Origin: Planctomycetota bacterium
GTDB taxonomy: Bacteria; Planctomycetota; PLA2
Direction: 5' to 3'
DNA: 64,000 nt
Assembly (NCBI GenBank): GCA_021776785.1
Contig: JAJFFF010000001.1
Coordinates: 187,129-251,128 of the forward strand
The first letter of the stretch is position 1. Each line of letters opens with the position of its first letter. The position numbers were made by a program, and so were the translations under genes. Positions 48,419-61,993 of this stretch are shown piece after piece. The notes under the pieces were generated by a model that did not search any database, was not told the DNA's origin, and saw only the letters and a program-made list of their open reading frames with translations.

Positions 48419-49330
48419 CTAGCGCGAGACGAGTGTCTGCGCCCACCGTGCAAACTGACGGAGGTCGGAGAAATACTCGATGCCGCGCGGCCCGCGCCGC
48501 GTGCCGCGCGCTCCCACACCGCCGACGACCAACTCGCATGCCGCGGGCAAACTCTGACGGAGCAGAGCCAGCTGGCGATCGGTTTCGATGCCGGCGGACG
48601 AGAGTGAAACGCCGATGCCGACGGCCTTGGCGTCGCATTCCTGCGTGGCGGCGACGGTCTCCGCGATCGGTGTGCAGCGTCCGAGAATATGCGGACGTAC
48701 TCCAACCGTTGTGGCTGCGACCGCACACATCTGCACCCCGAGCCCGTGTTCCTCATCCGGAAGCGTTGCGAGAACGATCGTCGGAGACTTGAATGAGACT
48801 TCGAACTCGCTGCGCAACCGGCGCAAAAAGTCCTGCATCACTTCGGTCACGAAATGCTCGTGCCGAATCTTTAATGTTCCGTCGCGCCAGAGCGCCCCGA
48901 CGCGCGTGAGCAACGGTGCGACTCGCTGATCGAGAAGACGAACAGCTCCCATCGAACGATAGGCGTCTCGAAGCAGCCCGACCAGAGTGATCGCGTCATA
49001 CGTGCGGACCATCTGCACCATCGCCTGGATTTCAGGAGTACTGCTCGACGGTTCCGGATCGGGTTCGCGGGCGACGAGGGCGGCCAGCTCTTCGTCGGAA
49101 GAGCGCACAACTTTCCCCGGGCGGTTGCCGCGCTGCAGAGCCTCCGCAACGCGTCGCAACCACGCGAGGTGATCGTCGTTGTAGCGCCGATGGCCGGACG
49201 GGAGCCGGATCGGAACCGGCTTGCCGTAGCGCCGCTCCCAAACTCGAATCGTGTCCGAGGAGATCCCTGTCGCTTTGGCAAGTTGCCCAATCGACATCAA
49301 GTCAGCGGTGTTCACTTCTGTACTGTCCAT
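48419..49330 (-). CDS. MerR-family regulator with C-terminal cobalamin-binding domain (CarH/LitR-like light-responsive repressor)
   Basis: N-terminal MerR HTH (MSIGQLAKATGISSDTIRVWERRYG). C-terminal B12-binding domain with the DxHxxG motif (LPDEEHGLGVQM). The start is ambiguous: ATG 49330 or 49297. It is divergent from the ybgA-like/photolyase operon. Confidence 0.75.
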   Translation of the reverse strand: MDSTEVNTADLMSIGQLAKATGISSDTIRVWERRYGKPVPIRLPSGHRRYNDDHLAWLRRVAEALQRGNRPGKVVRSSDEELAALVAREPDPEPSSSTPEIQAMVQMVRTYDAITLVGLLRDAYRSMGAVRLLDQRVAPLLTRVGALWRDGTLKIRHEHFVTEVMQDFLRRLRSEFEVSFKSPTIVLATLPDEEHGLGVQMCAVAATTVGVRPHILGRCTPIAETVAATQECDAKAVGIGVSLSSAGIETDRQLALLRQSLPAACELVVGGVGARGTRRGPRGIEYFSDLRQFARWAQTLVSR

Positions 49331-49395
49331 TAATTTCCATGATTGTCCAATAAAAAACATAGACATAGGGCCTGGAGACCGGAACATGACTCGTC
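49300..49395. promoter_or_regulatory. AT-rich divergent promoter/operator region between the CarH-like gene and the YbgA-photolyase operon
   Basis: It contains tgtccattaatttccatgattgtccaataaaaaacatagacatag, which stands out against a ~68% GC background. TGTCCA occurs twice as a direct repeat. Confidence 0.4.
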
Positions 49396-50361
49396 ATGGG
49401 TCTGCAAGTCTCTGGACGACCGCGGTTGGGAATCAGCAGTTGTCTGCTCGGCGAAAAAGTTCGCTTCAACGGTGGTCACAAGCGGGACCGGTACCTCACC
49501 GACACTTTGGGCGCGTTGTGCGACTGGGTCATGGTGTGTCCGGAAGTCGAACTCGGCCTCGGTTCGCCGCGCGAGACGCTCCGTCTGGTCGGTGACCCCA
49601 CGCAGCCGCGGCTACATGAGCCGGCGACCGACATCGATCGGACGCGCGCGATGCATCGGTTTGCCGGTGACCGCGCGCGGGCGTTACGCGTCGAGGGCTT
49701 GCACGGGTTCGTGTTCAAAAAAGACTCCCCAACGTGCGGGATGGCGCGCGTGAAGGTTTGGCACGAGAGCGGCGGCGGATCGGAACGCAAAGGTGTCGGC
49801 CTGTTCGCCGCCGCAGTCATGAAAGCGTTTCCGCTCCTCCCTTGTGAAGAGGAGGGGCGGCTCCATGACATGCCGTTGCGCGAGAACTTTATCGAGCGCG
49901 TGTTTTGCTACCAGCGGTGGCGCGATTCGTTTGACAAGCGCGTGCGTCGCGGAAACTTGGTTGCGTTTCACACGGCGCACAAGCTGACGCTCATGGCGCA
50001 CTCGCCGGTGCGCTACCGAGAACTTGGTCGCATCGTCGCCGCGCTCGGAACGCGTCCGTTGCGTGAAGACATCGATGCGTACGGAGAACAGTTCATGGAA
50101 GCACTTCGACTGCTGGCGACGCGCCGCAAGCACACCAACGTCTTGCAGCACATCGCCGGATACTTCAAACGAAAGATCGACTCCGATGATCGTACCGAAC
50201 TCGCCGGTTGCATCGAGGACTACCACGCGGGAAGCGTGCCGTTGATCGTCCCGCTCACGTTGGTCCGTCATCACCTGCGCCGCCATCCCGACGCCTGGTT
50301 GGAGTGCCAGACTTATCTTCACCCGTACCCGGCGGAGCTCATGCTTCGTAACCACGTATGA
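49396..50361 (+). CDS. DUF523 (TudS-like) + DUF1722 (YbgA-like) fusion protein
   Basis: N-terminal LGISSCLLGEKVRFNGGHK is the DUF523 Cys-rich signature. The C-terminal half resembles YbgA, the gene found upstream of phr in E. coli. It overlaps the photolyase start. Confidence 0.7.
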   Translation: MGLQVSGRPRLGISSCLLGEKVRFNGGHKRDRYLTDTLGALCDWVMVCPEVELGLGSPRETLRLVGDPTQPRLHEPATDIDRTRAMHRFAGDRARALRVEGLHGFVFKKDSPTCGMARVKVWHESGGGSERKGVGLFAAAVMKAFPLLPCEEEGRLHDMPLRENFIERVFCYQRWRDSFDKRVRRGNLVAFHTAHKLTLMAHSPVRYRELGRIVAALGTRPLREDIDAYGEQFMEALRLLATRRKHTNVLQHIAGYFKRKIDSDDRTELAGCIEDYHAGSVPLIVPLTLVRHHLRRHPDAWLECQTYLHPYPAELMLRNHV

Positions 50362-51764
50362 GCCGTTCAACACCGCCTGCGCGCGTGCGCGTCGTACAGG
50401 ATGCGCCGCTCCGGCCGACCGGGGATTTCGTACTGTATTGGATGATCGCGACGCGCCGCACGACGTCGAACTTTGCGCTTGATCGTGCGGTGGAGCACGC
50501 CGCGGCGCTCAAGAAACCGATCGTCGTGCTCGAGCCGCTCCGCGCGGGGTACCGCTGGCGCAGCGACCGGATCGATACGACGCTCGTCGCCGGAATGTCC
50601 GACAACGCGCGTCGCTTCGCGGGCGAGCCCGTGGCGTATTACCCCTATGTCGAGCCCGAGGCCGGTGCGGGCCAGGGGCTGCTCGCAGCGCTGGCGGAGC
50701 GCGCCTGCGTTGTCATCACGGATGACTTCCCGTGCATATTTTTGCCGCGCATGGTGCGCGCGGCCGGCGAGCAGCTGTCGGTGCGGTTAGAAGCCGTCGA
50801 TTCCAACGGAATCGTGCCGATGCGATCGACGCCGGATGCGTTTCCCACGGCGTACTCGTTCCGGCGGTACTTGCATCGGAATCTCTCGCCGTACTTGGGC
50901 GAGGCGCCCTATGCTCGCCAACGTGTGGCCGGCGTGGCTCCGCGCATCGAGCTGCCGCCCGCGGTCGTGAAGCGGTGGCCCCTCGCGTCGCTGGAATCCG
51001 TGCCGCCGCGCGGCGCTACCGCGGCGCAGCAAACGCTCGTCGACTTTTTAGCGCGCTTGGATCGTTACGGCGATGATCGCAACTCGCCGGAAAACGACGC
51101 GACGAGCGGCCTCTCCTCGGCCCTTCACTTCGGCCACATCTCACCGCATGAGATCTTTCACGAACTCGCGGACCAAGAGGATTGGACGCCCGACGATCTG
51201 GCGGACACCGTCAAGGGCAACCGCGCGGGTTGGTGGGGGATGAGCGAATCCGCGGAGGGGTTCCTCGACCAGCTCATTACGTGGCGCGAGCTCGGCTACA
51301 ACATGTGCGTGCACCGACCGGACGACTACGACCGATACGAGTCACTCCCGTCTTGGGCGCAAGTAACACTTGAGGCGCATGCCGGAGACGAACGCGAGTT
51401 TGTGTACACGCTCGAGCAATTCGACACGGCGCAGACGCACGATCCGATCTGGAACGCGGCCCAAACGCAACTCCGCCGCGAGGGGCGCATTCACAACTAC
51501 CTGCGCATGCTCTGGGGCAAAAAGATCCTGGAGTGGACGGCGTCCCCGCGCGACGCGCTCGCCGTGATGATCGAGCTCAACAACAAGTACGCGCTCGACG
51601 GCCGCAACCCAAACTCGTACAGCGGGATCTTTTGGTGCCTGGGTCGGTACGACCGCGCCTGGGGTCCGGAGCGTCCGATCTTCGGCAAGATTCGCTACAT
51701 GAGCTCGGACAACACGCGGCGCAAGTACAAGCTCAAGAGCTACTTGGAAGCGTACAGCTCCTGA
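50358..51764 (+). CDS. phr: deoxyribodipyrimidine photolyase, class II CPD type
   Basis: FVLYWMIATRRTTSNFAL is the class II N-terminal signature. The C-terminal FAD-binding region has RMLWGKKILEW...GIFWCLGRYDRAWGPERPIFGKIRYMS. Confidence 0.85.
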   Translation: MSRSTPPARVRVVQDAPLRPTGDFVLYWMIATRRTTSNFALDRAVEHAAALKKPIVVLEPLRAGYRWRSDRIDTTLVAGMSDNARRFAGEPVAYYPYVEPEAGAGQGLLAALAERACVVITDDFPCIFLPRMVRAAGEQLSVRLEAVDSNGIVPMRSTPDAFPTAYSFRRYLHRNLSPYLGEAPYARQRVAGVAPRIELPPAVVKRWPLASLESVPPRGATAAQQTLVDFLARLDRYGDDRNSPENDATSGLSSALHFGHISPHEIFHELADQEDWTPDDLADTVKGNRAGWWGMSESAEGFLDQLITWRELGYNMCVHRPDDYDRYESLPSWAQVTLEAHAGDEREFVYTLEQFDTAQTHDPIWNAAQTQLRREGRIHNYLRMLWGKKILEWTASPRDALAVMIELNNKYALDGRNPNSYSGIFWCLGRYDRAWGPERPIFGKIRYMSSDNTRRKYKLKSYLEAYSS

Positions 51765-52210
51765 AAGTTGGGGAGGTCCGCGACCGTTTTGTAGTTGTAC
51801 GAGCGGACGACCTGGCCCTGTTCGAGCAGCACTGCGCCCGGCATCTGCCACGGATCCCCGACGGGTTTTCCGGCCCCGTAGCCGGCGAAGATCGCCTTGA
51901 GGCCGCGCCACCAAATCTTTGGATGCAGGATGAGTGAGATCGGGTTGCCGCGTTTCAGTTCGAATTCGCGGTAGATGTTTTTGTCAGGGTCGCTGAAACG
52001 TGCAACATCATCGAGCTTGTATTTCGCGAATAGCTCCCGCGCTTGCTCGTCGGTTCCGAGATGAACGAGGGCGAGACGCACACCGTGCGCCTCCATCGCG
52101 GGACGTTGCGCGGCGAGTGTCGCCAGCGTCTCGCGACAAAACGTTCAGCCGAGGTGGCGCAAGAAGACCGCCAAGACAGGGCCGTCTTCCGACATTTTTT
52201 GAAGTGTCAT
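51740..52210 (-). CDS. candidate selenoprotein: PRXL2/SelU-like (AhpC-TSA_2 family) thioredoxin-fold protein with G-U-T-F-C motif (in-frame TGA at 52147..52145)
   Basis: The track ORF 51740..52096 starts at an internal Met. The frame stays open upstream through one TGA to the ATG at 52210, which overlaps the cfa-like stop (ATGA). Translation gives [52 protein letters not shown]... The Sec sits where PRXL2-family proteins have the first Cys of CxxC (compare the human PRXL2A 'RRPGCFLCRE' segment). A 6-bp hairpin (UGUCGC...GCGACA) lies 6 nt after the UGA. Confidence 0.6.
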
Positions 52211-53241
52211 GCATTTCTCCGGAATCGATAGTGGGCAACGTGCCACTCCTGGCCGTCGCGGTAGCCGAACAGTTCCGCGCACGCCAAAAAAAACATGCGC
52301 CATCGCGCGAACCAGCGCGCCGCCGAATTCGCGCCGTAGCAGTCGGCGAAAACAGGCATTACGCGTTCGCGTTCGCGGTCAAGGTTGCGCAACCAGTGTT
52401 CCGACGTCTTTTGGTAGTGAATTCCGTTGACGAACCACCGATCCTCGAGCGCGAGGTCGCGATCGAAGCTCGGGAGCAGGTCGTAGTCCGGCATGAGACC
52501 GCCCGAAAAGAAGTGACGGCCCATCCAGTTGCTCGGGCCATCCGTCTCGAACGGATACGTGAACTGCTTGTGGCAAAACACGTGCACGAACAACCGGCCG
52601 TCCGGACGCAGCCACGACGCTACGCGTTGCATCAACGTTTGGTAGTTACGGACGTGTTCAAACATCTCGACGCTGACGACGCGGTCAAACACCTGTCCGG
52701 GTTCGAACGCGTTGACGTCGGCGGTCCGCACGTCGATCGACGTGACCCCGCGCGCTTCGATAAATCGGCGCTGTGGCGCGGAGTTGGAAACGGACACGAC
52801 GCGGCAGTTCGGAAAGTGCTCCGCGATGTAGAGGGAGAGCGATCCCCAGCCACAGCCGAGATCCAACACGTCCATCCCGTCCTCGATGCCCGCGCGTTCA
52901 CAAGTCAGGGCGAGCATCGCTTCCTCCGCTTCGTCCAGCGTGTGCACACCGTCCGGGTAGTAGCACGAGCTGTATTTCAGCCGCTTTCCCAGCGCGCACT
53001 GGAAAAACTGCGAGGGCACTTCGTAGTGCTGCTCGTTGGCCTTTTCGGGAACGAGCGCCACGGGGCTTGCTTTGAGGCCGCGCACGAACGCTGCGCGCTC
53101 GCCGGGGGTGCGTCCGAGCTCATCCGATAGACGTTCGCGGATCAGCCGGCGAATGCCCCAGCGCAACATCGGTGTCGGGACGAGGCTCCGCTCGGCGAGG
53201 GATAGACCGATGGCGCTCACGCGTCCTCCTTGGGAGGCCAT
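52207..53241 (-). CDS. cyclopropane-fatty-acyl-phospholipid synthase family SAM-dependent methyltransferase (second, divergent paralog)
   Basis: [24 protein letters not shown]...[17 protein letters not shown] is the Cfa/mycolic-acid synthase fold. The start is uncertain (ATG 53241 or 53169). The track ORF extends to 53424. Confidence 0.75.
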
Positions 53242-53987
53242 GGGAAAAACACGCTCGTTGTTTCCTGGTAGCGGCGGTAGTCTTCGCCGCGACTCTTGAG
53301 CGCTTGTTTTTCCGTGTACGGGATGCCGGTTAGGCGGAACAAGAACAGAAACATCAGAACCGGGCCGAGCCAAGTCAATAGGTGTCCGCCGCCGATACAC
53401 ACGTACGCGAACCAGTGGGTCCACTCAAAAAAGTAGTTGGGATGCCGTGAGTAGCGCCAGAGTCCCGCGCGACAGGTCTTGCCTGGATGTTGCCGGCGCC
53501 AGCGCGCGAGTTGCTGGTCTGCGACCATTTCCCCGGCTACCGCGATCACGGCGACGGCAGCGCCAACGTAGTCCCATCCGTCGAGCGGACCGGCGCGCCC
53601 CATGGCTGCATAGAACACGAGCGAAAACAGGACGGCGACAACGGCCTGCCCTTGGTAGAACACGAAGAAGTACAGCGGCGCGCGCTCGCCCCAGTGCTCG
53701 CGCATTGCGCGGTAGCGACCGTCTTCTTTAGCCTCGCCGCGGACGCGGTTCCAAAAGAGGTGCAAAAACAAGCGTCCGGCCCAGGCAGCGGCGATTACCG
53801 CTACGAGTGTGCGGCGCGCGAGCTCACCTTCACGAAGCGCGGCGTAGAGTACGGCCAACGCGCCGAGGGCGAACGCCCAAGCGGCATCCACGCTTGTGGC
53901 GTTCCTGGTTCGGAGTTGGCGCGCCCAAAGCGCGGCCATGCCCAAGCCAACGCCCAACAGCCCCCAGAGAGGCAGGAGCCAACTCAT
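53217..53987 (-). CDS. DUF1295 family membrane protein (steroid 5-alpha-reductase/ICMT-like fold)
   Basis: Multi-TM protein. [21 protein letters not shown] is the DUF1295 signature. The ATG at 53987 overlaps the cfa stop (ATGA). Confidence 0.7.
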
Positions 53988-55243
53988 CGCAGTCTTCCCG
54001 CGAGCGATGATTCGGGGCGCTCCCATACGAGGTGCTGGGTACCGATGAACCGCTCGTCGAATCCGCCCTCGCAATACGCGAGGTAAAACTCCCACATCCG
54101 CAGAAACAACTCGTTGTAGCCCAGTGCGCGGATCGCCTCGATGTGCGTATGAAAGTTCCGGCGCCACCGGCGCAACGTTTCGCCGTAGCTCGGCGTTAAG
54201 TCAAACACCTGCGTCGGAGCGAGGTCCGTGCGCTTCGCGGCCGCTTGCATCAGGACCGTGACAGATGGAATGCAGCTCCCAGGGAAGATGAATTTCTTGA
54301 TGAAATCCACGTCGTTTTTGCACTCGTCAAAGTAGCGGTCGCGGACCGTGATGGATTGCAAGAGCATCGCGCCGTCCCGTCGGAGAAGTTGCTCGCAGGT
54401 TTCGAAAAACGTCGCGTAGTAGCGGTGGCCAACCGCTTCAATCATTTCGATCGACACGATTTTGTCGTACGTCCCCGAGAGATCTCGGTAGTCGCGCAGC
54501 AAGACCGTGACGCGATCCGAGAGACCCGCGGCTTCCACGCGCGCTTTCGCGAGGTGGAGCTGCTGTTCAGAAATCGTCGTTGTCGTCACGCGGCAACCAT
54601 GGCGTTGCGCCGCGTGGATCGCGAAGCCACCCCAGCCGGTTCCGATCTCCAGCACATGGTCGTCTTTGCCGATCTGCAGCGCGTCGCCGACGCGGTCGTT
54701 CTTGTTGCGCTGCGCCTCCGCGAGCGATTCACGCGCGTCTTCGAACAACGCGCACGAGTACGTCATCGATTCGTCCAGAACGAGCCGGAAGAAGTCGTTG
54801 CCGATGTCGTAATGCGCAGCGATGTTGCGTTTGGCGCCGCGTCGCGTGTTGCGTCGCAGCGTGTGCGCCGCGCGCAAGAGCGGTTGGACCAAGCGCGCAG
54901 CGCCTCTCTCCATTCCGTTCATTACGTCACGGTTCGCGACAAACGCTCGGACGAGCGCGGTGAGGTTGTCGACGTCCCAGAGCTTCTCGAAGTACGCCTC
55001 GGCCGCCGCGTTGTGTCCCCCGCGCACGACGCGACCGTAAAACGCCGCGTCGTGGACGGTCACAGCCGCCGTGCGTTCCGCCGGAGCGTCGGCCGAGCCG
55101 AACGTCGTGGTACCGTCCGGATCGGTCCACACGATGTGGCAATCACGAAGCGCGTCCAAGCGCCGGAGGAACGCTCGTCGCGCCCAGCTTCCCAGCAAGC
55201 GGACGTGCTGTATCTCGTGTTCGCGTAAGACGGCGGATTTCAT
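53984..55243 (-). CDS. cfa: cyclopropane-fatty-acyl-phospholipid synthase (Cfa-type lipid methyltransferase)
   Basis: AHYDIGNDFFRLVLDESMTYSCALFE, VLEIGTGWGGFAIHAAQRHGCRVTTTTIS and YDKIVSIEMIEAVG are present. The start is at ATG 55243; the track ORF carries a 199-aa spurious extension. Confidence 0.85.
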   Translation of the reverse strand: MKSAVLREHEIQHVRLLGSWARRAFLRRLDALRDCHIVWTDPDGTTTFGSADAPAERTAAVTVHDAAFYGRVVRGGHNAAAEAYFEKLWDVDNLTALVRAFVANRDVMNGMERGAARLVQPLLRAAHTLRRNTRRGAKRNIAAHYDIGNDFFRLVLDESMTYSCALFEDARESLAEAQRNKNDRVGDALQIGKDDHVLEIGTGWGGFAIHAAQRHGCRVTTTTISEQQLHLAKARVEAAGLSDRVTVLLRDYRDLSGTYDKIVSIEMIEAVGHRYYATFFETCEQLLRRDGAMLLQSITVRDRYFDECKNDVDFIKKFIFPGSCIPSVTVLMQAAAKRTDLAPTQVFDLTPSYGETLRRWRRNFHTHIEAIRALGYNELFLRMWEFYLAYCEGGFDERFIGTQHLVWERPESSLAGRLR

Positions 55244-55968
55244 CGAACGGTCCTCGGATGCGGGATGAAAGGAACGCGCTTCAGGCGTAACCGAAGCGCT
55301 TGCCAGTAAATCGCTGCGGTGATACGCAGCGTCAGGAAAGGCCACCGAACAAGCGCCCGCGCGAGCGAGCCGCCCGTGATCGGGCGCCGCTTTAGACTCA
55401 GCGTGGCTTCGAAGTGCGTCGCGTCGTCGCGCACGTTTTCCATATGCACGGCGAGGCTCTCGTCCGGCGTCGAGAACGCCCAGTCGCACCGGTAGTTCAT
55501 GTCGAGGAACGGAGAGACGTGAAACTCCTTGCGGAAGCGGCCGCGCAATCCGTCCAAGACATACGTGTGGCGTTCGTTCCACGGCGTGTTCGTGATCTCG
55601 GCGCACAGCGCCACGACGCGCTTTCCCGCGTCGTCGAAACAGTAGTAGAACGTTACGGGGTTGAAGCAGTAACCGAACAACCGCAGATTCGTCAGCATGC
55701 GGATCGGTCCCGTCGGTCGGACGCCGAGCTTTTTTTCCACGACATCGCGCACGCACTCCGAAAGCGGCTGCTTCGGATGGCCCAGGTAGTCTTTGCGCCG
55801 AAACCACGCGAGGTTGAAACGGCGGGCCGACCAGAGCCAACGGCGGTCAAACACCTGCGGTAGCTCGTCGAGATCGAGATAGAGTTGGTAGAGGCAATAG
55901 CGAAAGGCGTGCGGTTTCGGGATGTGTCGCTCGTGGTCCACGGTGCCTTCGTAGATCGCGCTATGCAT
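55240..55968 (-). CDS. DUF1365 family protein
   Basis: SAIYEGTVDHERHIPKPHAFRYCLYQLYLDLDE... fits DUF1365. This family is typically found with Cfa and FAD amine-oxidase genes. Confidence 0.7.
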   Translation of the reverse strand: MHSAIYEGTVDHERHIPKPHAFRYCLYQLYLDLDELPQVFDRRWLWSARRFNLAWFRRKDYLGHPKQPLSECVRDVVEKKLGVRPTGPIRMLTNLRLFGYCFNPVTFYYCFDDAGKRVVALCAEITNTPWNERHTYVLDGLRGRFRKEFHVSPFLDMNYRCDWAFSTPDESLAVHMENVRDDATHFEATLSLKRRPITGGSLARALVRWPFLTLRITAAIYWQALRLRLKRVPFIPHPRTVR

Positions 55969-57202
55969 GCACCGGCTCCAACGCGCGTACGACGCGCAGA
56001 GCGCTATTCACGCCATCTTCGTGGAAACCGTTGAACCAATACGCCCCGCAGTAGTGCGTGTTGCGAGAACCGCTGATCTCGGACCAGCGCTGCTGGGCGG
56101 CGATGCTTTCCGTGGTGAACAACGGATGATCGTACGTAAAGCGTCGCAGCACCTTGTCGGGTGCGATCGCGCCGGTTCGGTTGAGTGTGACGAGGAACGG
56201 CGCGTGCGACGGCAGCGACTGCAAGATGTTGAGGTTGTAGGTGACTGTGGCGCGAGACGTGTCCGGCTGCACGTGATAGTTCCACGCGGCCCACGCTCGC
56301 CTTACGCGCGGCATCAGCGTTTGATCCGTGTGCAGCACGACGTCGTTGGATTGATAGGGCAGCGCTCTGAGGATGTCTCGCTCGTCCGGCGACGGGTCGC
56401 GGAGCAGCCGCAACGCCGCGTCGCTGTGTGTGGCGAATACGACGTGGTCGAATCGTTGCGACCCCGCGGCCGTCCGTACGTCGACGCCGCTCGCGGTGCG
56501 TGCGACGGCGACGACGGGCGTGGACAGACGAATTCGATCCGTGAACGGGCGCGTGATGGCGTCCACGTAGCGGCGGGACCCACCGCGGACGACGCGCCAC
56601 TGCGGGCGTTCGTCTACCGAGAGCATGCCGTGATTCTGAAAAAAGCTCACGAAGAACCGCAATGGAATTTGCAGAAAGCGCTCCGGATCGGTGGACCACA
56701 CCGCAGAACCCATCGGCACCAGGTAGTGCTCGACGAAACGGCGTCCGTAGCTGCGCTCCTTGAGAAATTCGCCGAGGGTCGCGGGCGCTGACGCGTCCCC
56801 GATCGTCGCCGGCGCTTCGCGGTGAAATCGCAAGATGTCACGGATCATCTTGAGGAACGACGGCCGCATCAGGTTGCGCCGCTGCGCGAACATCGTGTTG
56901 AGCGACGTGCCGTTGTATTCGAGACCGGTCTGTTCGCAGCGCACCGAGAAACTCATCGCGGACGGTTGGGAGGCGACGTCCAACTCGTCTAGAAGCGCGA
57001 TGAAGTTCGGATACGTCCAGTCGTTAAACACGATGAAGCCGGTATCGACGTCGTAGGATCTTCCGTCCTGCGCAACCGTAACGGTGGCCGTGTGACCGCC
57101 GACGTAGTCGTTGGCTTCAAACAGAGTGATGTCGTGGGCCTTGTGCAGGTGGTGCGCGGCGACGAGGCCCGAGATGCCGGTCCCGATGATCGCAATGCTC
57201 AC
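55961..57202 (-). CDS. FAD-dependent oxidoreductase (flavin amine-oxidase/phytoene-desaturase-like)
   Basis: GTG 57202 gives VSIAIIGTGISGLVAAHHL, a Rossmann dinucleotide motif. It overlaps the desaturase stop (GTGA). Confidence 0.8.
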   Translation of the reverse strand: MSIAIIGTGISGLVAAHHLHKAHDITLFEANDYVGGHTATVTVAQDGRSYDVDTGFIVFNDWTYPNFIALLDELDVASQPSAMSFSVRCEQTGLEYNGTSLNTMFAQRRNLMRPSFLKMIRDILRFHREAPATIGDASAPATLGEFLKERSYGRRFVEHYLVPMGSAVWSTDPERFLQIPLRFFVSFFQNHGMLSVDERPQWRVVRGGSRRYVDAITRPFTDRIRLSTPVVAVARTASGVDVRTAAGSQRFDHVVFATHSDAALRLLRDPSPDERDILRALPYQSNDVVLHTDQTLMPRVRRAWAAWNYHVQPDTSRATVTYNLNILQSLPSHAPFLVTLNRTGAIAPDKVLRRFTYDHPLFTTESIAAQQRWSEISGSRNTHYCGAYWFNGFHEDGVNSALRVVRALEPVHA

Positions 57203-58134
57203 CGGCTCGCCTCGCGGACGCGCGGAGGAACGTCGTTGAGGTCGCGAATGATCCCCAGCCACGACAACACGACGAGCCCGTAGTAAGTGATGTCGATCTC
57301 CCACCACCAAAAGCCCTGGCGTACAGAGCCGGGGTAGTGATGGTGGTTGTTGTGCCAACCTTCGCCGAGTGTCAGGACGGCGAGCCAAAAGCTGTTTCTG
57401 CTGTCGTCGTCTGTGTCGTAGCGACGTCGGCCGACGGTGTGGGCGAGCGAGTTGATGGCACTTGTCGCGTGAAACAGAGCGACCGTCGAGATCCCAAACC
57501 CCCAGACCACGAACTGCATGCCGCCCGTCGCGTAGAGAGCGACGACGAGCAATCCCGGCGCAACCGTGTCAAAACGGTCGAGCCAGCGAAGCTCCGGGTA
57601 GCGAGCGAGATCAGGCACCCGGCTCAGATCGGTACGGAAGTTCTTGCGCGACGTGAACCAGCCGACGTGGCTCCAATAAAACCCGTGTTCATGGGGAGAA
57701 TGGACGTCTGCGGCCTCGTCGGAGTGGCGGTGGTGGTGCCGATGATGGGCCGCCCACCAAAGTGGACCCCGCTGCGCGGACATGTTGCCCACGACGGCGA
57801 AACAGAACTGGGCTACGCGCCCGGTCCGAAATGTCCGATGGGAGAAATAGCGGTGATAAAAGCCGGTGATGGCAAACATGCGGACGACGTACAGTCCGAT
57901 GGCGACCCAGAGCGCCGGCCAACTCCAGCCCACCCATAGGACGCCGAAGCAGAGGACATGGAGGAGGACGAACGGGATGCACCGAAGCCAATCGTCCACT
58001 CTGCCCTCGTCGTGCTCGGCCGGTCCCGCCTGGGAGTCGAACCAACGGGCGACCGCGAGCCCGGTTCGTCGCAACGCACTTCGCCTTGCCGTGGGCGCTG
58101 GCAAGCGAGTTCTAGGACGAGTGGAGAGAGGCAT
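57199..58134 (-). CDS. membrane acyl-lipid/acyl-CoA fatty acid desaturase (delta-9-type, di-iron His-box family)
   Basis: Three His boxes are present: HRYFSH, HHRHHHRH, HNNHHH. Multi-TM. The annotated start overlaps the divergent TlpA-like start and may lie further downstream. Confidence 0.85.
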   Translation of the reverse strand: MPLSTRPRTRLPAPTARRSALRRTGLAVARWFDSQAGPAEHDEGRVDDWLRCIPFVLLHVLCFGVLWVGWSWPALWVAIGLYVVRMFAITGFYHRYFSHRTFRTGRVAQFCFAVVGNMSAQRGPLWWAAHHRHHHRHSDEAADVHSPHEHGFYWSHVGWFTSRKNFRTDLSRVPDLARYPELRWLDRFDTVAPGLLVVALYATGGMQFVVWGFGISTVALFHATSAINSLAHTVGRRRYDTDDDSRNSFWLAVLTLGEGWHNNHHHYPGSVRQGFWWWEIDITYYGLVVLSWLGIIRDLNDVPPRVREASR

Positions 58135-59305
58135 GTTCGAGCGAATCTATCGAAATGATGCTGTCGCGTCCCGGCCGCGCCGTACCCTGTGGCGCGTGAA
58201 AACCTGGATTTTGCCGACGATGGCCCTTGCAATCGTCGCAGGGTGTCGTTCGTCGTCAAATGCGCAGCAACGGTTTGAGACTAGTTACGCCGCATACCAA
58301 GCGGATGGATTCAGCGATCGGGAGATGGCCCGTCTTTCGAAACAGGCTGTGGCGGTCGCCGAGAGTGATGGAATCTCTGATGAGGCGCGTTTCGATACGC
58401 TGTTGCGGGCCGCACGAGCCACGTCTGAGGGCGGCTCGTACAAGCGTTCGCGTAGGGCTCGAGGCCGGATTTTCCCCGCGCTCCTCCGGCTTAGCCGCCA
58501 TGACGATCACCGTCTTGCCCAGGTGATTCAGGCTCTGTCCCACCTCGGGAGATTCGATCCGAGCGAGGCGAAAAAAGAAGAACAAGAATATGTCCAATAC
58601 TTGGACAAAGTCGCCGCCGTGGGACCCGTCGAGTGGGTGCAGCCCGCTGTGGCCTGGGCTCGGGCGCATCACCGCGTCGCGCGCGATCTGCATGTCGAGC
58701 CGATCAGCGAAGCCGAGCGTGCGGAGACGCGCGAGTGGATTAAGTTGAGCTACCGCGGTTGCGAACACCTGCCGGACTCGCAGTGGGCGTCCGACGTCCG
58801 CCAGTTCTGCAGCCGTTCGATGAGCCAACTCGACCAGTTGGTCATCGGGCGGCCCGCGCCCGAGATTGCGTCGCGCGATTTCTCGGGGCGTGACCTGCGG
58901 CTATCCGAATACCGCGGCAAGATTGTCGTCGTTTCGTTTTGGGCGACCTGGTGCAAGCCGTGCATGGCCAAGTTCGACGATCAACGCGACCTCGTCAACG
59001 CGATGCAAGGCAAGCCGTTCGCGCTGCTGGGTGTCAACAACGATCGGGATGCAGCGCGTGCGCGGGCTGTGGCAGGCAACGGCAAATTGAACTGGCGCAA
59101 CTTCCGCGACGACCCGGAAGCCGGGGCGGGCGAGTGCGCCGACGCCTTCGCCGTGCGCATGTGGCCGTCCGTTTTCGTCCTCGACGCCGAGGGCGTGGTG
59201 CGCGCGATCAACCCGCGCCGCGACGACCTGTGGGACATCTGCAAATCGCTGGTGGCTGAAGTTGAAGATTCCCACCCGATCGCGGCGGCCGCCGGCAGCG
59301 ACTAG
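58133..59305 (+). CDS. TlpA-like thiol:disulfide oxidoreductase lipoprotein (thioredoxin fold, WCKPC)
   Basis: Lipobox LAIVAGC. Trx motif VVSFWATWCKPCMAKF. The start is uncertain: ATG 58133 gives a long pre-lipobox leader. The track ORF starts at 57866, inside the desaturase gene. Confidence 0.75.
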   Translation: MFERIYRNDAVASRPRRTLWRVKTWILPTMALAIVAGCRSSSNAQQRFETSYAAYQADGFSDREMARLSKQAVAVAESDGISDEARFDTLLRAARATSEGGSYKRSRRARGRIFPALLRLSRHDDHRLAQVIQALSHLGRFDPSEAKKEEQEYVQYLDKVAAVGPVEWVQPAVAWARAHHRVARDLHVEPISEAERAETREWIKLSYRGCEHLPDSQWASDVRQFCSRSMSQLDQLVIGRPAPEIASRDFSGRDLRLSEYRGKIVVVSFWATWCKPCMAKFDDQRDLVNAMQGKPFALLGVNNDRDAARARAVAGNGKLNWRNFRDDPEAGAGECADAFAVRMWPSVFVLDAEGVVRAINPRRDDLWDICKSLVAEVEDSHPIAAAAGSD

Positions 59306-59473: not shown

Positions 59474-61993
59474 ATGAAGTGGGCGCAATGGATCTTGGTT
59501 TTGGCGTTGGGGGCCGTGGCGTCGTGTAGCACGAAGGTCGGCGCCTTCCCCGTCGTCGAAGCGCCGGATCCGGATCCGGAACCGGAACCCCCGGCGCCCG
59601 ATCCCGGCAACAGCCGTGTGTCGGGCCTCGCCGCGGTGAACGGCCCGGATGGCATCGCGTCCGTCACACTGCTGGTGCACGACCCCGAATCGGACCCGGT
59701 GACGGTGCTCTTTGAGTACTCGGTGGCGGGCGTCGAGTGGTTCGCGTGCGGGTTGGTCGATGTGGCCGCCACCACGGCGGCGACGCCGGCCGGAAGCACG
59801 CTCGACGTACAGTGGTACTTAGACGACTTAGGGTTTCGCGGCGTCGGCGGATTCTTGCGCGCCACGCCGACCGACCTCGATGGCGTCGGCACGTCGCAGA
59901 TGATTCCGATCACGAACCCGGACCGGCGCCGCGCACGCGCCGCCGACGTCGAGTTCTACATGATTCACTACGGCGGATTCAGCGACGAGCAGATCCGCGT
60001 GGCCGAAACGTACGACTTGGTCATCCTGCATCCGTTCAGCGGCAATCTGCCCGCGGCGATCGTGCACGACATTGCCGACGGTATCGACCCGAGCGATCCC
60101 GCCGACGACGTCTTGGTGTTGGGTTACATCTCGATCGGCGAAGACCTTCGCACGGTGGGTATCACGGACGAGGAGATGTTGCTCGACCCGCGTTTTGTCG
60201 GCGACGGGACGGGGCCGCGCATCGACCCGCGCGGTCCCGGTTCGGACGGGCAGCGCTTGACGGGGCTCGATCCGCTGGGACTCCCGACGACGGGGCCGAC
60301 CGGTTACGCGTCGTGGTACCTAGACGACAACGACACACACAACTCGCCGACGTACACCGGCGACGGCAAACCGGACCGCAACGTGATCTTCGGCGGGTGC
60401 TTTGTCAACGCGGGCGATCCGAAGTGGTTTGATGCGTTGGACGGTATGGAGTTCGACGGCGTCGACGGCATGCCGGGCATCAAGGAACTCCTCACGGGCT
60501 TTGGGCGCGGGTACGGCTGCGACGGGTTGTTTTTGGACACCATCGACACGTGCGCGCCGAACTCGTTTACCGACGAGACGAGCCCGAACCAATCCGAGTA
60601 CGAATGGACCGCGCAGGGGTTCACGGACTTCATGGAGCTTCTGGACGCGCGCTACCCGCAGCACATCATTTTGCAAAACCGCGGGCTGTTCTTTTTCGAT
60701 CCGCGGCATCCGCACTACGAGGTGTCGCCGCGCGCGTCGATTCACTACCTGAAGTTTGAGAGCTTTCGCCTGAACTCGAACCAGTTCGAGGACTTCGACC
60801 CGTTCTTCTTTCCGGACAACAAGTTCAACGTGGCGCCCAAGCTGATGGCGGAGGCTAACCGCGACGATGGGTTTACCGTTCTCTCGCTCGGCTATGCCGA
60901 GGGGCCGGCGATCGACCTCGCGACTCTAAACGGCGAATCGACGGCCGGGTTAGACACGCTGATCGAAGACATCTTGGAGAACCAGGATCGTGTCGGGTTC
61001 CGCCACTACATCACCGATGGTGGCGTGGCGTTTTCCAACACGTTCGTGCGCGACTTCGCGGACATGGATGATCGCGAGCCGCCGGTTTGGACGAGCACCT
61101 ACAACGCCAACATTCAGCCCTTCCCGACGCCGCCGGGCGCGCCCGCATCGCGGATCGGCGTGCAGCAGGCGGTCGCGGGCACCGATGAAGTTACGGTGCG
61201 ATGGGACGTCGCGCTCGACCTCAATCGCGTGAACTACGTCCTCTACATGAGCGACATCCCGCTCGATTTTGCGGACCTCTCCAGCGCGGATCGTATCGAG
61301 TTGGAGCCCGAAATCGGCGCCGGCTATGCGCAGGGCGTGGGGCCGACGACGTACGCGCATCAGGCCACGATCGGACCGCTCGAACGCGGCTCGACGTTTT
61401 ACTTCTGCATTCGCGCCGTGGATCGCTTGGGGAACGAAGATCAAAACGAGGTCGTGCTGACCGCGCGTCTGCGTGGGTTGGAGACGATCACGATCGACGG
61501 CGAGTTCGATGACTGGGATGACATTCCGCTCGCGATGACCGATCCCGACGACGCGGACTCGTCGTCGGGTCCGAACTGGCGCGAGATCCAAGTCGCCAAC
61601 GATCTCGACAACGTGTACATCCGCTTCACGTCGGAGAACGCGTTCAACTTGGACGGCGGCCCCGGCTTTGGGTTTTCACGGACCCTGATCCTGATCGACA
61701 CCGATGACGATGCGGCGACCGGCTACAGCTTTGGGTCGGTCGGCAGCGAACTCATGGTGTCAGGCGACACGCTGAACCGACAGGAGGACGGGTCGTTTAA
61801 CGCGGGCCAGATTCAGGTGCTCAGCGTGAACCCCGAGACCAATGTCGCGGAGTGCGAGCTTGCGATCCCGATCAGCCGCATTCGCGCCGAATCGCCAGGC
61901 ACGAACCGCATCCGCATCTTGTTCTTAAACGACGAGACGTTCGACACGGCGCCGGACGCTGGCTACCTCGAGTTCGACATCGTCGGCGAGTAA
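59474..61993 (+). CDS. large lipoprotein with GH114-like TIM-barrel glycoside hydrolase domain and C-terminal beta-rich domains
   Basis: Lipobox ALGAVASC. A Pro/Asp/Glu linker follows. YDLVILHPF...VLGYISIGE resembles the GH114 (endo-alpha-1,4-polygalactosaminidase/PelA-like) core. Confidence 0.5.
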   Translation: MKWAQWILVLALGAVASCSTKVGAFPVVEAPDPDPEPEPPAPDPGNSRVSGLAAVNGPDGIASVTLLVHDPESDPVTVLFEYSVAGVEWFACGLVDVAATTAATPAGSTLDVQWYLDDLGFRGVGGFLRATPTDLDGVGTSQMIPITNPDRRRARAADVEFYMIHYGGFSDEQIRVAETYDLVILHPFSGNLPAAIVHDIADGIDPSDPADDVLVLGYISIGEDLRTVGITDEEMLLDPRFVGDGTGPRIDPRGPGSDGQRLTGLDPLGLPTTGPTGYASWYLDDNDTHNSPTYTGDGKPDRNVIFGGCFVNAGDPKWFDALDGMEFDGVDGMPGIKELLTGFGRGYGCDGLFLDTIDTCAPNSFTDETSPNQSEYEWTAQGFTDFMELLDARYPQHIILQNRGLFFFDPRHPHYEVSPRASIHYLKFESFRLNSNQFEDFDPFFFPDNKFNVAPKLMAEANRDDGFTVLSLGYAEGPAIDLATLNGESTAGLDTLIEDILENQDRVGFRHYITDGGVAFSNTFVRDFADMDDREPPVWTSTYNANIQPFPTPPGAPASRIGVQQAVAGTDEVTVRWDVALDLNRVNYVLYMSDIPLDFADLSSADRIELEPEIGAGYAQGVGPTTYAHQATIGPLERGSTFYFCIRAVDRLGNEDQNEVVLTARLRGLETITIDGEFDDWDDIPLAMTDPDDADSSSGPNWREIQVANDLDNVYIRFTSENAFNLDGGPGFGFSRTLILIDTDDDAATGYSFGSVGSELMVSGDTLNRQEDGSFNAGQIQVLSVNPETNVAECELAIPISRIRAESPGTNRIRILFLNDETFDTAPDAGYLEFDIVGE

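What the first reader, a model, noticed from the sequence alone, without database searches (positions are those of the whole stretch)
51740..58134. Seven-gene lipid-modification operon resembling the singlet-oxygen/furan-fatty-acid machinery, capped by a selenoprotein
Seven minus-strand genes are tightly coupled, each overlapping the next by 3-4 nt (GTGA, ATGA, ATGA...):
- His-box membrane desaturase
- FAD amine-oxidase-like oxidoreductase
- DUF1365
- Cfa methyltransferase
- DUF1295
- a second, divergent Cfa-like methyltransferase
- the PRXL2-like selenoprotein

The core (FAD oxidoreductase, DUF1365, Cfa-like, DUF1295) matches the conserved cluster that in Rhodobacter sphaeroides (RSP1091-1087, sigmaE/ChrR regulon) participates with UfaM/UfaD/UfaO in making methylated and furan fatty acids. 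These scavenge singlet oxygen.

This copy adds its own desaturase and a thiol/selenol peroxidase-like protein. It lies directly beside the light-response locus (CarH-like regulator, YbgA-like gene, class II photolyase). In R. sphaeroides the photolyase is in the same singlet-oxygen regulon.

The arrangement suggests a photooxidative-stress island whose products may be unusual acyl chains (methyl-branched, cyclopropane or furan).
Basis: partly seen in the sequence, partly recalled or inferred. Interest (0 to 1): 0.7.

Follow-up and report, generated by a model that had tools for sequence, protein, structure and literature searches.

The report
Furan-fatty-acid operon ending in a selenoprotein
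This is a real seven-gene operon that most likely makes methylated furan fatty acids, which are membrane lipids that quench singlet oxygen; the pathway is a known kind, and what is unusual here is that the operon ends in a selenocysteine redox protein that public annotation has cut short.

Summary
Seven minus-strand genes (51740-58134) are joined by overlapping stop and start codons. Their domain assignments hold: an SCD-type desaturase, an FAD amine-oxidase-like enzyme, DUF1365, a long CMAS methylase, DUF1295, a short CMAS methylase and a PRXL2/SelL-type protein.

The last gene has an in-frame TGA exactly where homologues carry the first Cys of FLRHxGCTFCRE. A hairpin follows it, and four other metagenomic contigs carry the same TGA.

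The FAD enzyme and DUF1365 belong to the UfaD and UfaO families themselves. Only RSP1091 and RSP1090 of the R. sphaeroides operon have counterparts here. The better model is R. palustris ufaD-ufaO-ufaM plus FufM.

The desaturase, DUF1295 and short methylase are not peculiar to this copy. The same six genes recur, often beside MerR/CarH-type regulators. Only the selenoprotein cap is lineage-specific.

Light control by the neighbouring B12-type CarH is plausible but not shown. Function is inferred, not tested. Verdict: a new variant of a known system, of moderate interest.

The parts
57199..58134 (-). g1: membrane di-iron fatty-acid desaturase of the stearoyl-CoA (delta-9, SCD) type. The start is uncertain: ATG 58134, TTG 58074, or GTG 57999 as in public calls.
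   Evidence: Pfam FA_desaturase. The best solved relatives are mouse and human SCD1, E 5e-25, with the His boxes aligned. It is 67% identical to the first gene of the syntenic L097 operon. The conserved RWFD motif lies upstream of GTG 57999.
55961..57202 (-). g2: FAD-dependent amine-oxidase/phytoene-desaturase-like enzyme, UfaD-like.
   Evidence: Pfam Amino_oxidase plus NAD_binding_8. It always lies directly upstream of DUF1365 in related loci. It is 45% identical to the Rhizobium tropici copy that sits next to an ECF sigma factor and ChrR.
55240..55968 (-). g3: DUF1365 protein, UfaO-like (the furan-ring-forming step).
53984..55243 (-). g4: long CMAS-family SAM methyltransferase. It occupies the position of UfaM in R. 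palustris.
   Evidence: Pfam CMAS, 276.8 bits. The best solved relatives are bacterial cyclopropane-fatty-acid synthases, and the match includes their N-terminal domain. It scores below the NCBIfam Cfa equivalog cut-off, 268 against 400.
53217..53987 (-). g5: DUF1295 integral membrane protein (steroid-reductase/ICMT superfamily). Its function is unknown.
   Evidence: Pfam DUF1295, 203 bits, with weak Steroid_dh and ICMT matches. It is paired with the short CMAS in R. tropici, L097, L094 and L095. A DUF1295 gene is induced by singlet oxygen in Chlamydomonas (PMC4067076).
52207..53220 (-). g6: short CMAS-family methyltransferase of the coclaurine-N-methyltransferase/FufM-like branch.
   Evidence: Its best solved relative is plant CNMT 6GKV at 250 bits, against 110 bits for E. 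coli Cfa. It is 25.5% identical to g4, which parallels the 26% between FufM and UfaM. FufM is 38% identical to the Arabidopsis methyltransferase LIME1 (PMC10940516). g6 is 47% identical to the R. tropici short CMAS.
51740..52210 (-). g7: SelL-related / PRXL2-family thioredoxin-fold selenoprotein with a UxxC motif, 156 aa.
   Evidence: NCBIfam SelL_rel_redox, 129.7 bits against a cut-off of 120. Alignments A1 and A2. A profile of the family hits the prostamide/PGF synthase PRXL2B (9US9) at E 1e-9, with the CxxC motifs aligned.
52145..52147 (-). In-frame TGA read as selenocysteine.
   Evidence: It aligns with the first, invariant Cys of FLRHxGCTFCRE. The same TGA is present in L087/L088, L089, L090 and L091, with synonymous changes upstream of it.
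52091..52141 (-). SECIS-like hairpin starting 6-11 nt after the UGA.
   Evidence: The lower stem GUCGCG/CGCGAU is invariant. The upper stem differs in sequence but stays paired in all four sequences; L091 has z = -3.4.
50358..51764 (+). Class-II-type CPD photolyase, convergent with g7. The two 3' ends overlap by 25 nt.
   Evidence: NCBIfam TIGR00591 phr2, 335 bits, below the cut-off of 550. The same convergent overlap with the selenoprotein gene is seen in L091.
49396..50361 (+). TudS-DUF1722 fusion (RudS-type tRNA 4-thiouridine desulfidase).
   Evidence: Pfam 2-thiour_desulf plus DUF1722. RudS is described in PMC11417400.
48419..49387 (-). CarH/LitR-family regulator with a MerR HTH and a B12-binding domain. 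Its start is probably at 49330.
   Evidence: Pfam MerR_1 plus B12-binding_2. NCBIfam CarH matches over the full length at 106 bits, below the cut-off. The motifs W-x9-EH (W167) and ExHxxG (E212) are present.
49324..49353 (.). Two direct repeats, TGTCCATTAA and TGTCCAATAA, 20 nt apart in the carH/rudS intergenic region. Candidate CarH operator.
58591..58607 (.). Palindrome TGTCCAATACTTGGACA, the only other copy of TGTCCAWTA in the window, 457 nt upstream of ATG 58134. Possibly an operator, possibly a coincidence of coding sequence.
   Evidence: 3 copies against 0.17 expected. It lies inside the real tlpA-like gene, and part of the peptide it encodes (QYLD) is conserved in the closest homologue, P0227.
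58133..59305 (+). Divergent TlpA/ResA-like thioredoxin lipoprotein. This is context; it is not shown to belong to the system.
   Evidence: Pfam AhpC-TSA and Redoxin; NCBIfam ResA and TlpA, both below cut-off. The N-terminal domain is conserved and the lipobox Cys is invariant.

Best explanation
This is a chromosomal, translationally coupled operon in a bacterium that is probably a member of the Planctomycetota. It most likely builds methylated furan fatty acids (FuFA) on membrane phospholipids as a defence against light-generated singlet oxygen.

Proposed sequence of steps. None has been tested in this organism.
1. g1, an SCD-type desaturase that needs O2, makes the cis-monoene acyl chain (inferred).
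2. g4, the long CMAS enzyme in the UfaM position, adds a methyl group from SAM and shifts the double bond. This is by analogy with R. palustris RPA2569.
3. g2, UfaD-like and FAD-dependent, makes the conjugated diene. The activity has been shown for UfaD.
4. g3, UfaO-like (DUF1365), inserts an oxygen atom from O2 to close the furan ring. The activity has been shown for UfaO.
5. g6, the FufM/CNMT-like short CMAS enzyme, adds a second methyl group to give a dimethyl FuFA (inferred).
6. g5, DUF1295, has an unknown role in the membrane. It is a consistent partner of g6.
7. g7, a UxxC selenoprotein of the PRXL2/SelL family, supplies thiol/selenol reducing power (inferred). It may do so for the oxygenase step, whose reductant is unknown. 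Alternatively it may reduce lipid (endo)peroxides formed when FuFA trap singlet oxygen.

Expression is probably tied to light through the adjacent B12-type CarH regulator (inferred).
For: Operon structure: six consecutive stop/start overlaps.

Family identities.

Published biochemistry:
- UfaD is RSP1091, an FAD enzyme.
- UfaO is RSP1090, a DUF1365 protein.
- FufM makes the dimethyl FuFA and is 26% identical to UfaM (PMC7380195).

Synteny:
- L097, a Planctomycetota MAG, has the same six genes in the same order at 59-67% identity, followed by a CarH homologue at 48% identity.
- L052, from Phycisphaerales, has the same six genes in the same order, with one extra unassigned ORF between CMAS and DUF1295. 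A MerR/LitR-like gene leads the operon and a Cys-form SelL gene lies 1.6 kb away.
- L094 and L095 carry a permuted set.
- The R. tropici plasmid copy sits next to an ECF sigma factor and ChrR.
- The Legionella copy sits next to a photolyase.

Physiology in other organisms:
- Pseudomonas LitR regulons include phrB, an FAD oxidoreductase and ufaM (PMC9758184).
- The Chlamydomonas singlet-oxygen regulon includes a Cfa, a CNMT-like Cfa, DUF1365 and DUF1295 (PMC4067076).

Selenoprotein:
- The TGA aligns with the catalytic Cys.
- It is conserved in four more metagenomic contigs, and a fifth contig without DNA shows the same truncated gene call.
- The gene follows the short CMAS wherever upstream sequence is present.
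Against: - No direct comparison with the characterised proteins was possible. These are UniProt Q3IYV7, Q3IYV8, Q3J4I7 and Q6NBA4. The AFDB library was unavailable.
- g4 cannot be told apart from a true cyclopropane synthase by these data.
- No lipid data exist for this organism.
- No sigma-E-type or sigma-70-type promoter was found upstream of the operon, and no CarH-box-like repeat lies directly upstream of it.
- The only extra copy of the carH-promoter motif lies inside a real coding region.
- SelL-related proteins are mostly not linked to ufa genes. Only 4 of 80 genome loci show linkage, and the two nearest Cys homologues are elsewhere.
- No selenocysteine machinery and no tRNA gene lies in the window.
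Confidence: 0.65

Rival explanations
1. The operon modifies acyl chains, but the product is not a furan fatty acid. It could be cyclopropane, methyl-branched or conjugated-diene lipids only. In that case DUF1365 and the FAD enzyme would serve another oxidation or signalling role.
For: g4's closest solved relatives are true cyclopropane synthases. The JBC paper itself leaves open that DUF1365 proteins may have other oxidation roles. In R. sphaeroides these genes are also needed for ChrR turnover and signalling (PMC6852236).
Against: The ufaD-ufaO-methylase gene order is the one shown to be sufficient for FuFA in R. palustris. DUF1365 proteins are unusually well conserved, about 60% identical across phyla. 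A FufM-like methylase has no known substrate other than a FuFA.
Confidence: 0.2
2. The selenoprotein is a general thiol-disulfide or peroxide redox protein. It was merely captured at the end of the operon, or belongs functionally with the photolyase side, and has no specific lipid substrate.
For: 76 of 80 genome loci with Cys homologues have no ufa genes within 10 kb. The closest Cys homologues sit in unrelated contexts. SelL homologues are also found next to photolyase genes without visible ufa genes, as in L084.
Against: The start overlaps the stop of the short methylase (ATGA) in the window and in L087, L088 and L089. The two genes are also adjacent in L090 and in the JGI 7002-nt contig. 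Four ufa-linked loci out of 80 is far above my own rough chance estimate of about 0.1. The only solved relative reduces a lipid endoperoxide (plus established knowledge of PRXL2B).
Confidence: 0.3
3. The TGA in g7 is a genuine stop. Under this reading g7 is a pseudogene, or a 21-aa peptide followed by a 113-118-aa N-terminally truncated protein, as in the public annotation.
For: Public gene calls start after the TGA. L087 and L088 carry a 31-nt frame-breaking deletion just after the TGA, and L090 has an extra in-frame TAG. No Sec machinery is visible in the window.
Against: The 21 codons before the TGA encode the conserved [11 protein letters not shown] motif, with synonymous differences between contigs. 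The TGA replaces the invariant catalytic Cys. A truncated product would lack the whole redox motif. A conserved hairpin follows the TGA.
Confidence: 0.05
4. The operon is not under CarH or light control. Its adjacency to the carH-rudS-phr unit would then be only a convergent neighbourhood, with regulation by another factor or constitutive expression.
For: No carH-promoter-type repeat, sigma-E consensus or sigma-70 consensus was found in the 200 nt upstream of g1. The operon's promoter end lies 8.7 kb from carH.
Against: MerR/LitR/CarH-type genes flank the orthologous operons in L097, L052 and L094. L097 shows similar TTGTCC...TTGGACA elements upstream of both its desaturase and its carH. The third TGTCCAWTA copy lies upstream of the operon.
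Confidence: 0.35

Closest known systems
Rhodopseudomonas palustris FuFA genes RPA2571-2570-2569 (ufaD-ufaO-ufaM) and fufM (RPA0924) (Lemke et al. 2020, PMC7380195)
   Same: The gene order is the same: FAD enzyme, DUF1365, CMAS methylase. There is also a second, divergent CMAS methylase about 26% identical to the first.
   Different: Here all the genes lie in one operon, with a dedicated SCD-type desaturase, DUF1295 and a selenoprotein. Sequence identity to the characterised proteins could not be measured.
Rhodobacter (Cereibacter) sphaeroides sigma-E/ChrR regulon operon RSP1091-1087, plus ufaM (RSP2144) and phrA (RSP2143)
   Same: RSP1091 (UfaD) and RSP1090 (UfaO) correspond to g2 and g3. A photolyase belongs to the same stress regulon.
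   Different: RSP1089 is a GPH symporter, RSP1088 is a hypothetical protein and RSP1087 is an SDR, none of which has a counterpart here. Regulation there is by an ECF sigma factor and ChrR; no such promoter or gene was seen near this operon.
Pseudomonas class II LitR light-inducible clusters (PplR1/PmlR1: phrB, litR, rudS, SDR, FAD oxidoreductase, ufaM)
   Same: A MerR/LitR-family regulator, photolyase, RudS and FuFA-type genes are clustered, and they are light-induced.
   Different: The regulator here carries the full B12-binding motifs (W-x9-EH, ExHxxG), so it is class I CarH-like. The ufa operon is convergent to the regulator's unit rather than part of it.
PRXL2 family: fish and invertebrate SelL (UxxU), and human PRXL2B prostamide/PGF synthase (CxxC)
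   Same: Thioredoxin fold. The redox motif is at the same position, and Sec replaces the first Cys. The NCBIfam SelL-related model is passed.
   Different: This is a bacterial UxxC form, shorter at the N-terminus, and it is encoded inside a lipid-modification operon. Its substrate is unknown.
UxxC Prx-like/Trx-like bacterial selenoproteins of marine metagenomes (Zhang and Gladyshev 2008, PMC2398784)
   Same: A thioredoxin-fold selenoprotein with a UxxC motif and many Cys homologues.
   Different: No link to a lipid-modification (FuFA-type) operon appears in the passages of that survey that I read.

Membership tests
UfaO (DUF1365 furan-forming enzyme) | Full-length DUF1365 domain | tested here: met
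   PF07103, 274.6 bits, residues 5-239 of 242.
UfaO (DUF1365 furan-forming enzyme) | Encoded directly downstream of the UfaD-type FAD enzyme | tested here: met
   There is an 8-nt overlap with g2. The same pairing is seen in L092, L093, L094, L095 and L097.
UfaO (DUF1365 furan-forming enzyme) | Orthology to RSP1090/RPA2570, and O2-dependent furan formation | not testable with these tools
afdb50 was unavailable.
UfaD (FAD fatty-acyl desaturase) | NAD/FAD-binding Rossmann domain plus an amine-oxidase/phytoene-desaturase-like domain | tested here: met
   PF13450 and PF01593.
UfaD (FAD fatty-acyl desaturase) | Orthology to RSP1091/RPA2571 | not testable with these tools
   Only bridging evidence is available: 45% identity to the R. 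tropici copy beside ChrR.
UfaM (olefin methylase) | CMAS-family SAM methyltransferase encoded after ufaO, as in R. palustris | tested here: met
   PF02353, 276.8 bits, with an ATGA overlap with g3.
UfaM (olefin methylase) | The product is a methyl-branched trans-olefin rather than a cyclopropane | not testable with these tools
   The closest solved relatives are cyclopropane synthases. g4 scores below the NCBIfam Cfa equivalog cut-off. Neither result decides the question.
FufM (FuFA methylase) | CMAS-family enzyme only distantly related to UfaM (about 26% identity), in the branch that holds plant LIME1/CNMT-like enzymes | tested here: met
   g6 is 25.5% identical to g4. CNMT 6GKV scores 250 bits against 110 bits for Cfa. 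FufM is 38% identical to LIME1. That LIME1 is CNMT-like is from my own knowledge.
FufM (FuFA methylase) | Direct orthology to RPA0924, and methylation of 9M5-FuFA | not testable with these tools
Bacterial selenoprotein | In-frame UGA aligned with Cys in homologues, with conserved coding sequence on both sides | tested here: met
Bacterial selenoprotein | SECIS hairpin immediately downstream of the UGA | tested here: inconclusive
   A hairpin is predicted in all four sequences, and its upper stem varies but stays paired. Only 2 pairs show compensatory changes, the z-score for the window's own copy is -1.7, and no dedicated bSECIS model was run.
Bacterial selenoprotein | selA, selB, selC and selD present in the genome | not testable with these tools
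   There is no tRNA gene in the window, and the rest of the genome was not available.
SelL-related / PRXL2 redox proteins | Passes the curated family model, with the redox motif aligned with the catalytic CxxC | tested here: met
   NF040769, 129.7 bits against a cut-off of 120. The PRXL2B motif LRRFGCVVCR aligns with LRHlGCtfCR.
CarH/LitR class I (AdoB12 photoreceptor-repressor) | MerR HTH plus a B12-binding domain carrying W-x9-EH and ExHxxG | tested here: met
   The NCBIfam CarH model matches over the full length but scores 106 bits against a cut-off of 400.
CarH/LitR regulon membership of the ufa operon | An operator like that of the carH promoter, upstream of the operon | tested here: inconclusive
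   There is none within 200 nt upstream. One copy lies at 58591-58607, inside a coding region.
Sigma-E/ChrR (ECF11) regulon | TGATC-N(15-19)-CGTA promoter upstream of the operon | tested here: not met
   Four matches in the window, none near 58000-58600.

The most novel reading that the evidence does not exclude
The selenoprotein, possibly together with the DUF1295 membrane protein, is the missing redox partner of the furan-fatty-acid system.

One version: it delivers the electrons that the UfaO oxygenase needs. That reductant is explicitly unknown in the 2020 pathway paper.

The other version: like its only solved relative, PRXL2B, which reduces the PGH2 endoperoxide, it reduces the endoperoxide formed when a furan lipid traps singlet oxygen. 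That would open a turnover or repair branch. DUF1295 might then act as an ene-reductase on the resulting enedione, allowing re-cyclisation.
Probability: 0.15. Interest if true: 0.7.

Novelty: new variant of a known kind. Interest (0 to 1): 0.4.

Why it matters
- It places the furan-fatty-acid pathway, so far characterised only in two alphaproteobacteria, in a Planctomycetota-like lineage as a self-contained operon.
- It shows that a dedicated desaturase, DUF1295 and a FufM-like methylase are recurrent but undescribed companions of ufaD and ufaO.
- It offers a concrete candidate, a UxxC selenoprotein of the PRXL2 family, for the unknown reductant or peroxide-handling step of FuFA chemistry.
- It flags two public annotation errors: a selenoprotein truncated at the TGA, and a desaturase start called too far downstream.
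- The practical value is a gene set to test for production of dimethyl furan fatty acids.

Tried and rejected
Searches that found nothing:
- A sigma-70 scan of the operon region gave 0 sites.
- A sigma-E consensus search found nothing near the operon.
- Rfam and tRNA scans of the window found nothing.
- Searching for the carH-promoter repeat directly upstream of g1 found nothing.

Searches that failed or gave too little:
- The metagenome scan gave only 4 loci.
- The afdb50 library was not installed, so UniProt Q3IYV8 and Q6NBA4 could not be reached.
- PMC7515241 and PMC4143029 are not held.

Ideas I dropped:
- From gene sizes I guessed that RSP1089 was a Cfa and RSP1087 a DUF1295 protein. Table 1 of PMC7074977 refuted this.
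- I argued from GC3 that g1 starts at GTG 57999. The conserved RWFD motif overturned this.
- I considered that the 5' third of the tlpA-like ORF is non-coding promoter DNA. Its conserved homologues rule this out.
- I considered that SelL-related proteins are general partners of ufa clusters. Only 4 of 80 loci show linkage, and the nearest Cys homologues are unlinked.
- I considered the region a horizontally acquired island. Its composition does not differ from the flanks.

Full report
**What is in the sequence**

Seven ORFs lie head to tail on the minus strand between 51740 and 58134. When starts are chosen so that each gene begins at the stop of the previous one, the junctions are as follows:
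- g1/g2: GTGA
- g2/g3: ATGCATAG, an 8-nt overlap
- g3/g4: ATGA
- g4/g5: ATGA
- g5/g6: GTGA, preceded by AAGGAGG
- g6/g7: ATGA

Six overlapping junctions in a row indicate a translationally coupled operon. Base composition does not differ from the flanks. The rest of the window carries housekeeping genes such as nuo and suf. This is therefore ordinary chromosome, not a compositional island.

**Family assignments**

| Gene | Assignment | Main evidence |
|---|---|---|
| g1 | SCD-type desaturase | FA_desaturase. The closest solved relatives are mouse and human stearoyl-CoA desaturase 1, E 5e-25, with the His boxes aligned |
| g2 | UfaD-like | NAD_binding_8 plus Amino_oxidase |
| g3 | UfaO-like | DUF1365 over its full length, 275 bits |
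| g4 | long CMAS methylase | 277 bits. The closest solved relatives are bacterial cyclopropane synthases, including their N-terminal domain |
| g5 | DUF1295 | 203 bits, with weak steroid-reductase and ICMT signals |
| g6 | short CMAS methylase | The best solved match is plant coclaurine N-methyltransferase at 250 bits, against 110 bits for E. coli Cfa |
| g7 | SelL-related | AhpC-TSA_2. It passes the curated NCBIfam 'SelL-related redox protein' model, 129.7 bits against 120 |

**The selenoprotein**

From ATG 52210 the frame reads [31 protein letters not shown].... In 11 full-length homologues the corresponding motif FLRHxGCTFCRE is invariant, and the TGA falls on its first Cys.

Several database entries of about 112 aa are the same protein cut at this codon. 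Fetching their contigs showed the same in-frame TGA in L089, L090, L091 and L087/L088. Many synonymous differences lie in the 21 upstream codons.

A hairpin begins 6-11 nt after the UGA in all four intact sequences. Its lower stem GUCGCG/CGCGAU is invariant. Its upper stem differs in sequence yet remains paired. Covariation is thin, with only 2 compensatory pairs, so I call the hairpin SECIS-like rather than proven.

A profile of the family finds one solved relative, the human prostamide/prostaglandin-F synthase PRXL2B, at E 1e-9. The two CxxC motifs align.

The window holds no tRNA gene, and no Sec machinery turned up among the ORFs I scanned. The rest of the genome could not be checked.

I put the selenoprotein reading at about 0.9.

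**What the operon corresponds to**

The 2020 pathway paper (PMC7380195) establishes the following:
- UfaD is RSP1091, an FAD enzyme that makes the conjugated diene.
- UfaO is RSP1090, a 250-aa DUF1365 protein that inserts oxygen from O2 to form the furan.
- In R. palustris, RPA2571 (ufaD), RPA2570 (ufaO) and RPA2569 (ufaM) are necessary and sufficient for the monomethyl furan fatty acid.
- A second methylase, FufM (RPA0924), is 26% identical to UfaM and makes the dimethyl form.

The window's g2-g3-g4 reproduce that gene order. g6 is 25.5% identical to g4. It falls in the CNMT-like branch, to which the plant FufM homologue LIME1 belongs. FufM and LIME1 are 38% identical (PMC10940516). That LIME1 is CNMT-like is from my own knowledge.

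Table 1 of PMC7074977 lists RSP_1089 as a GPH symporter, RSP_1088 as hypothetical and RSP_1087 as an SDR.

I could not compare the window proteins directly with the characterised ones.

**How common the arrangement is**

| Locus | Organism or source | Arrangement |
|---|---|---|
| L097 | Planctomycetota MAG | desaturase-ufaD-ufaO-CMAS-DUF1295-short CMAS in the same order, at 59-67% identity. An epimerase and a CarH homologue (48% identity, both B12 motifs) follow |
| L052 | Phycisphaerales | The same six genes in the same order, with one extra unassigned ORF between CMAS and DUF1295. A MerR/LitR-like gene leads the operon. A Cys-form SelL gene lies 1.6 kb away on the other strand |
| L094, L095 | metagenomic contigs | A permuted set, with DUF2878 and a lipocalin added |
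| L093 | Rhizobium tropici plasmid | DUF1295 plus short CMAS, divergent from ufaD-ufaO-CMAS, beside an ECF sigma factor and ChrR |
| L092 | Legionella plasmid | ufaD-ufaO-cfa-DUF2878-DUF1295 near a photolyase |

In Chlamydomonas, singlet oxygen induces a Cfa, a CNMT-like Cfa, a DUF1365 gene and a DUF1295 gene (PMC4067076).

The desaturase, DUF1295 and the second methylase are therefore recurrent companions of ufaD and ufaO, not additions unique to this copy. Within the library I could search, I found no paper that describes them as part of the pathway.

**Is the selenoprotein functionally tied to the operon?**

In the Sec-bearing clade the selenoprotein gene follows the short methylase wherever upstream sequence is present:
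- It overlaps the methylase stop (ATGA) in the window and in L087, L088 and L089.
- It is adjacent to the methylase in L090.
- It is adjacent in a 7002-nt JGI contig whose DNA was not retrievable. There the selenoprotein shows only as a 112-aa gene call beginning after a gap, so the TGA itself was not seen.
- The L091 contig begins too close to the gene to show what lies upstream.

In L091 the gene is also convergent with, and overlaps, a photolyase that is 70% identical to the window's.

Across 80 genome loci encoding Cys homologues, only four have ufa genes within 10 kb. The two nearest Cys homologues sit in unrelated contexts. More usual neighbours are a small membrane protein (28 loci) and another amine-oxidase-like FAD protein (21 loci).

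Four of 80 is well above my own rough chance estimate of about 0.1. Even so, the family as a whole is a general redox module. It has been recruited into the operon in this lineage.

**Regulation**

The regulator at 48419-49387 has a MerR HTH, a B12-binding domain and both CarH signature motifs: W-x9-EH at W167 and ExHxxG at E212.

It diverges from a TudS-DUF1722 gene and the photolyase. The TudS-DUF1722 gene is now known as RudS, a tRNA s4U desulfidase often found in LitR-controlled operons (PMC11417400).

The short AT-rich intergenic region carries two direct repeats, TGTCCATTAA and TGTCCAATAA, 20 nt apart.

No such element lies in the roughly 200 nt upstream of g1. Nor does a sigma-E or sigma-70 consensus.

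TGTCCAWTA occurs only three times in 64 kb, against 0.17 expected. The third copy is part of the palindrome TGTCCAATACTTGGACA at 58591-58607, 457 nt upstream of g1. That site lies inside a tlpA-like lipoprotein gene. The gene's N-terminal domain is genuinely conserved, and part of the peptide the site encodes (QYLD) is conserved in the closest homologue. The match may therefore be coincidence.

In L097, similar TTGTCC...TTGGACA elements precede both the desaturase and carH.

Pseudomonas LitR regulons include phrB, an FAD oxidoreductase and ufaM (PMC9758184). In R. sphaeroides phrA is in the sigma-E regulon.

Light control is therefore a reasonable inference from comparative context. It is not demonstrated for this operon.

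**Mechanism proposed**

- g1 supplies the cis-olefin. This step is inferred.
- g4 methylates the olefin, by analogy with UfaM.
- g2 desaturates it to the diene, and g3 closes the furan with O2. These activities have been shown for the UfaD and UfaO families, not for these proteins.
- g6 adds the second methyl group. This is inferred from the FufM-like placement.
- g5 has no known role.
- g7 provides selenol/thiol reducing power.

That gap, together with PRXL2B's endoperoxide-reducing chemistry, is the basis of the more novel reading. In it, g7 either feeds UfaO or reduces FuFA-derived endoperoxides. I give that reading a probability of about 0.15.

**Verdict**

The system is a new variant of a known kind: a FuFA operon with a desaturase, a FufM-like methylase, DUF1295 and a Sec-containing PRXL2/SelL cap. 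It is of moderate interest, mainly for the selenoprotein link and for the annotation fixes.

Noticed in passing
This is the RudS type of tRNA 4-thiouridine desulfidase, which has been reported in light-responsive LitR operons.
   Followed up: partly
window 51740-51764; L091 462-489: The selenoprotein gene and the photolyase gene converge, and their 3' ends overlap by 25 nt (28 nt in L091). No room is left for a terminator. The overlap is conserved in a relative whose photolyase is 70% identical.
   Followed up: partly
window 57999-58134: Public gene calls (NCBI, Logan) start the desaturase at GTG 57999, giving 266 aa. A conserved A-x-x-RWFD motif upstream is shared with L097, L094 and L095, so the start is probably ATG 58134 or TTG 58074. 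ATG 58134 and the tlpA-like ATG 58133 share one CATG, back to back.
   Followed up: yes
window 58591-58607: The palindrome TGTCCAATACTTGGACA sits in a locally AT-rich patch built from A/T-ending codons, inside the tlpA-like gene. It matches the repeat in the carH promoter. Whether it is an operator or a coincidence is unresolved.
   Followed up: partly
L087 about 1385; L088 about 520: Two contigs from different samples carry a 31-nt deletion exactly between the two arms of the SECIS-like lower stem. It breaks the frame of the selenoprotein gene, so it is either a pseudogene or a hairpin-induced assembly artefact. L090 has an extra in-frame TAG.
   Followed up: partly
L003-L082 (80 genome loci): Cys-form SelL-related genes often sit just upstream of a small membrane protein with no Pfam match (28 loci) and about 1.2 kb upstream of an amine-oxidase-like FAD protein distinct from UfaD (21 loci). 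At least some carry an N-terminal membrane extension.
   Followed up: partly
window 55240-55968 (model madbea5ac4ad0): DUF1365 is predicted with confidence to be a calycin-like beta-barrel. Its best solved matches are the OlmO spirocyclase, which also forms an O-heterocycle, and nitrobindin. No solved DUF1365 structure appeared among the matches.
   Followed up: partly
window 59474-61993 (+): An 839-aa ORF with a strong coding signature (GC3 0.83) has no Pfam or NCBIfam match.
   Followed up: no
L097 6820-6860 and 14100-14140: In the closest syntenic relative, similar TTGTCC-spacer-TTGGACA/TTGACA elements lie upstream of both the desaturase-led operon and the carH gene. They are a candidate shared operator.
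   Followed up: partly
window 58133-58840 (+): The N-terminal 236 aa of the TlpA-like lipoprotein form a conserved domain with no Pfam match. Only four homologues turned up among 1.8 billion representative proteins.
   Followed up: partly
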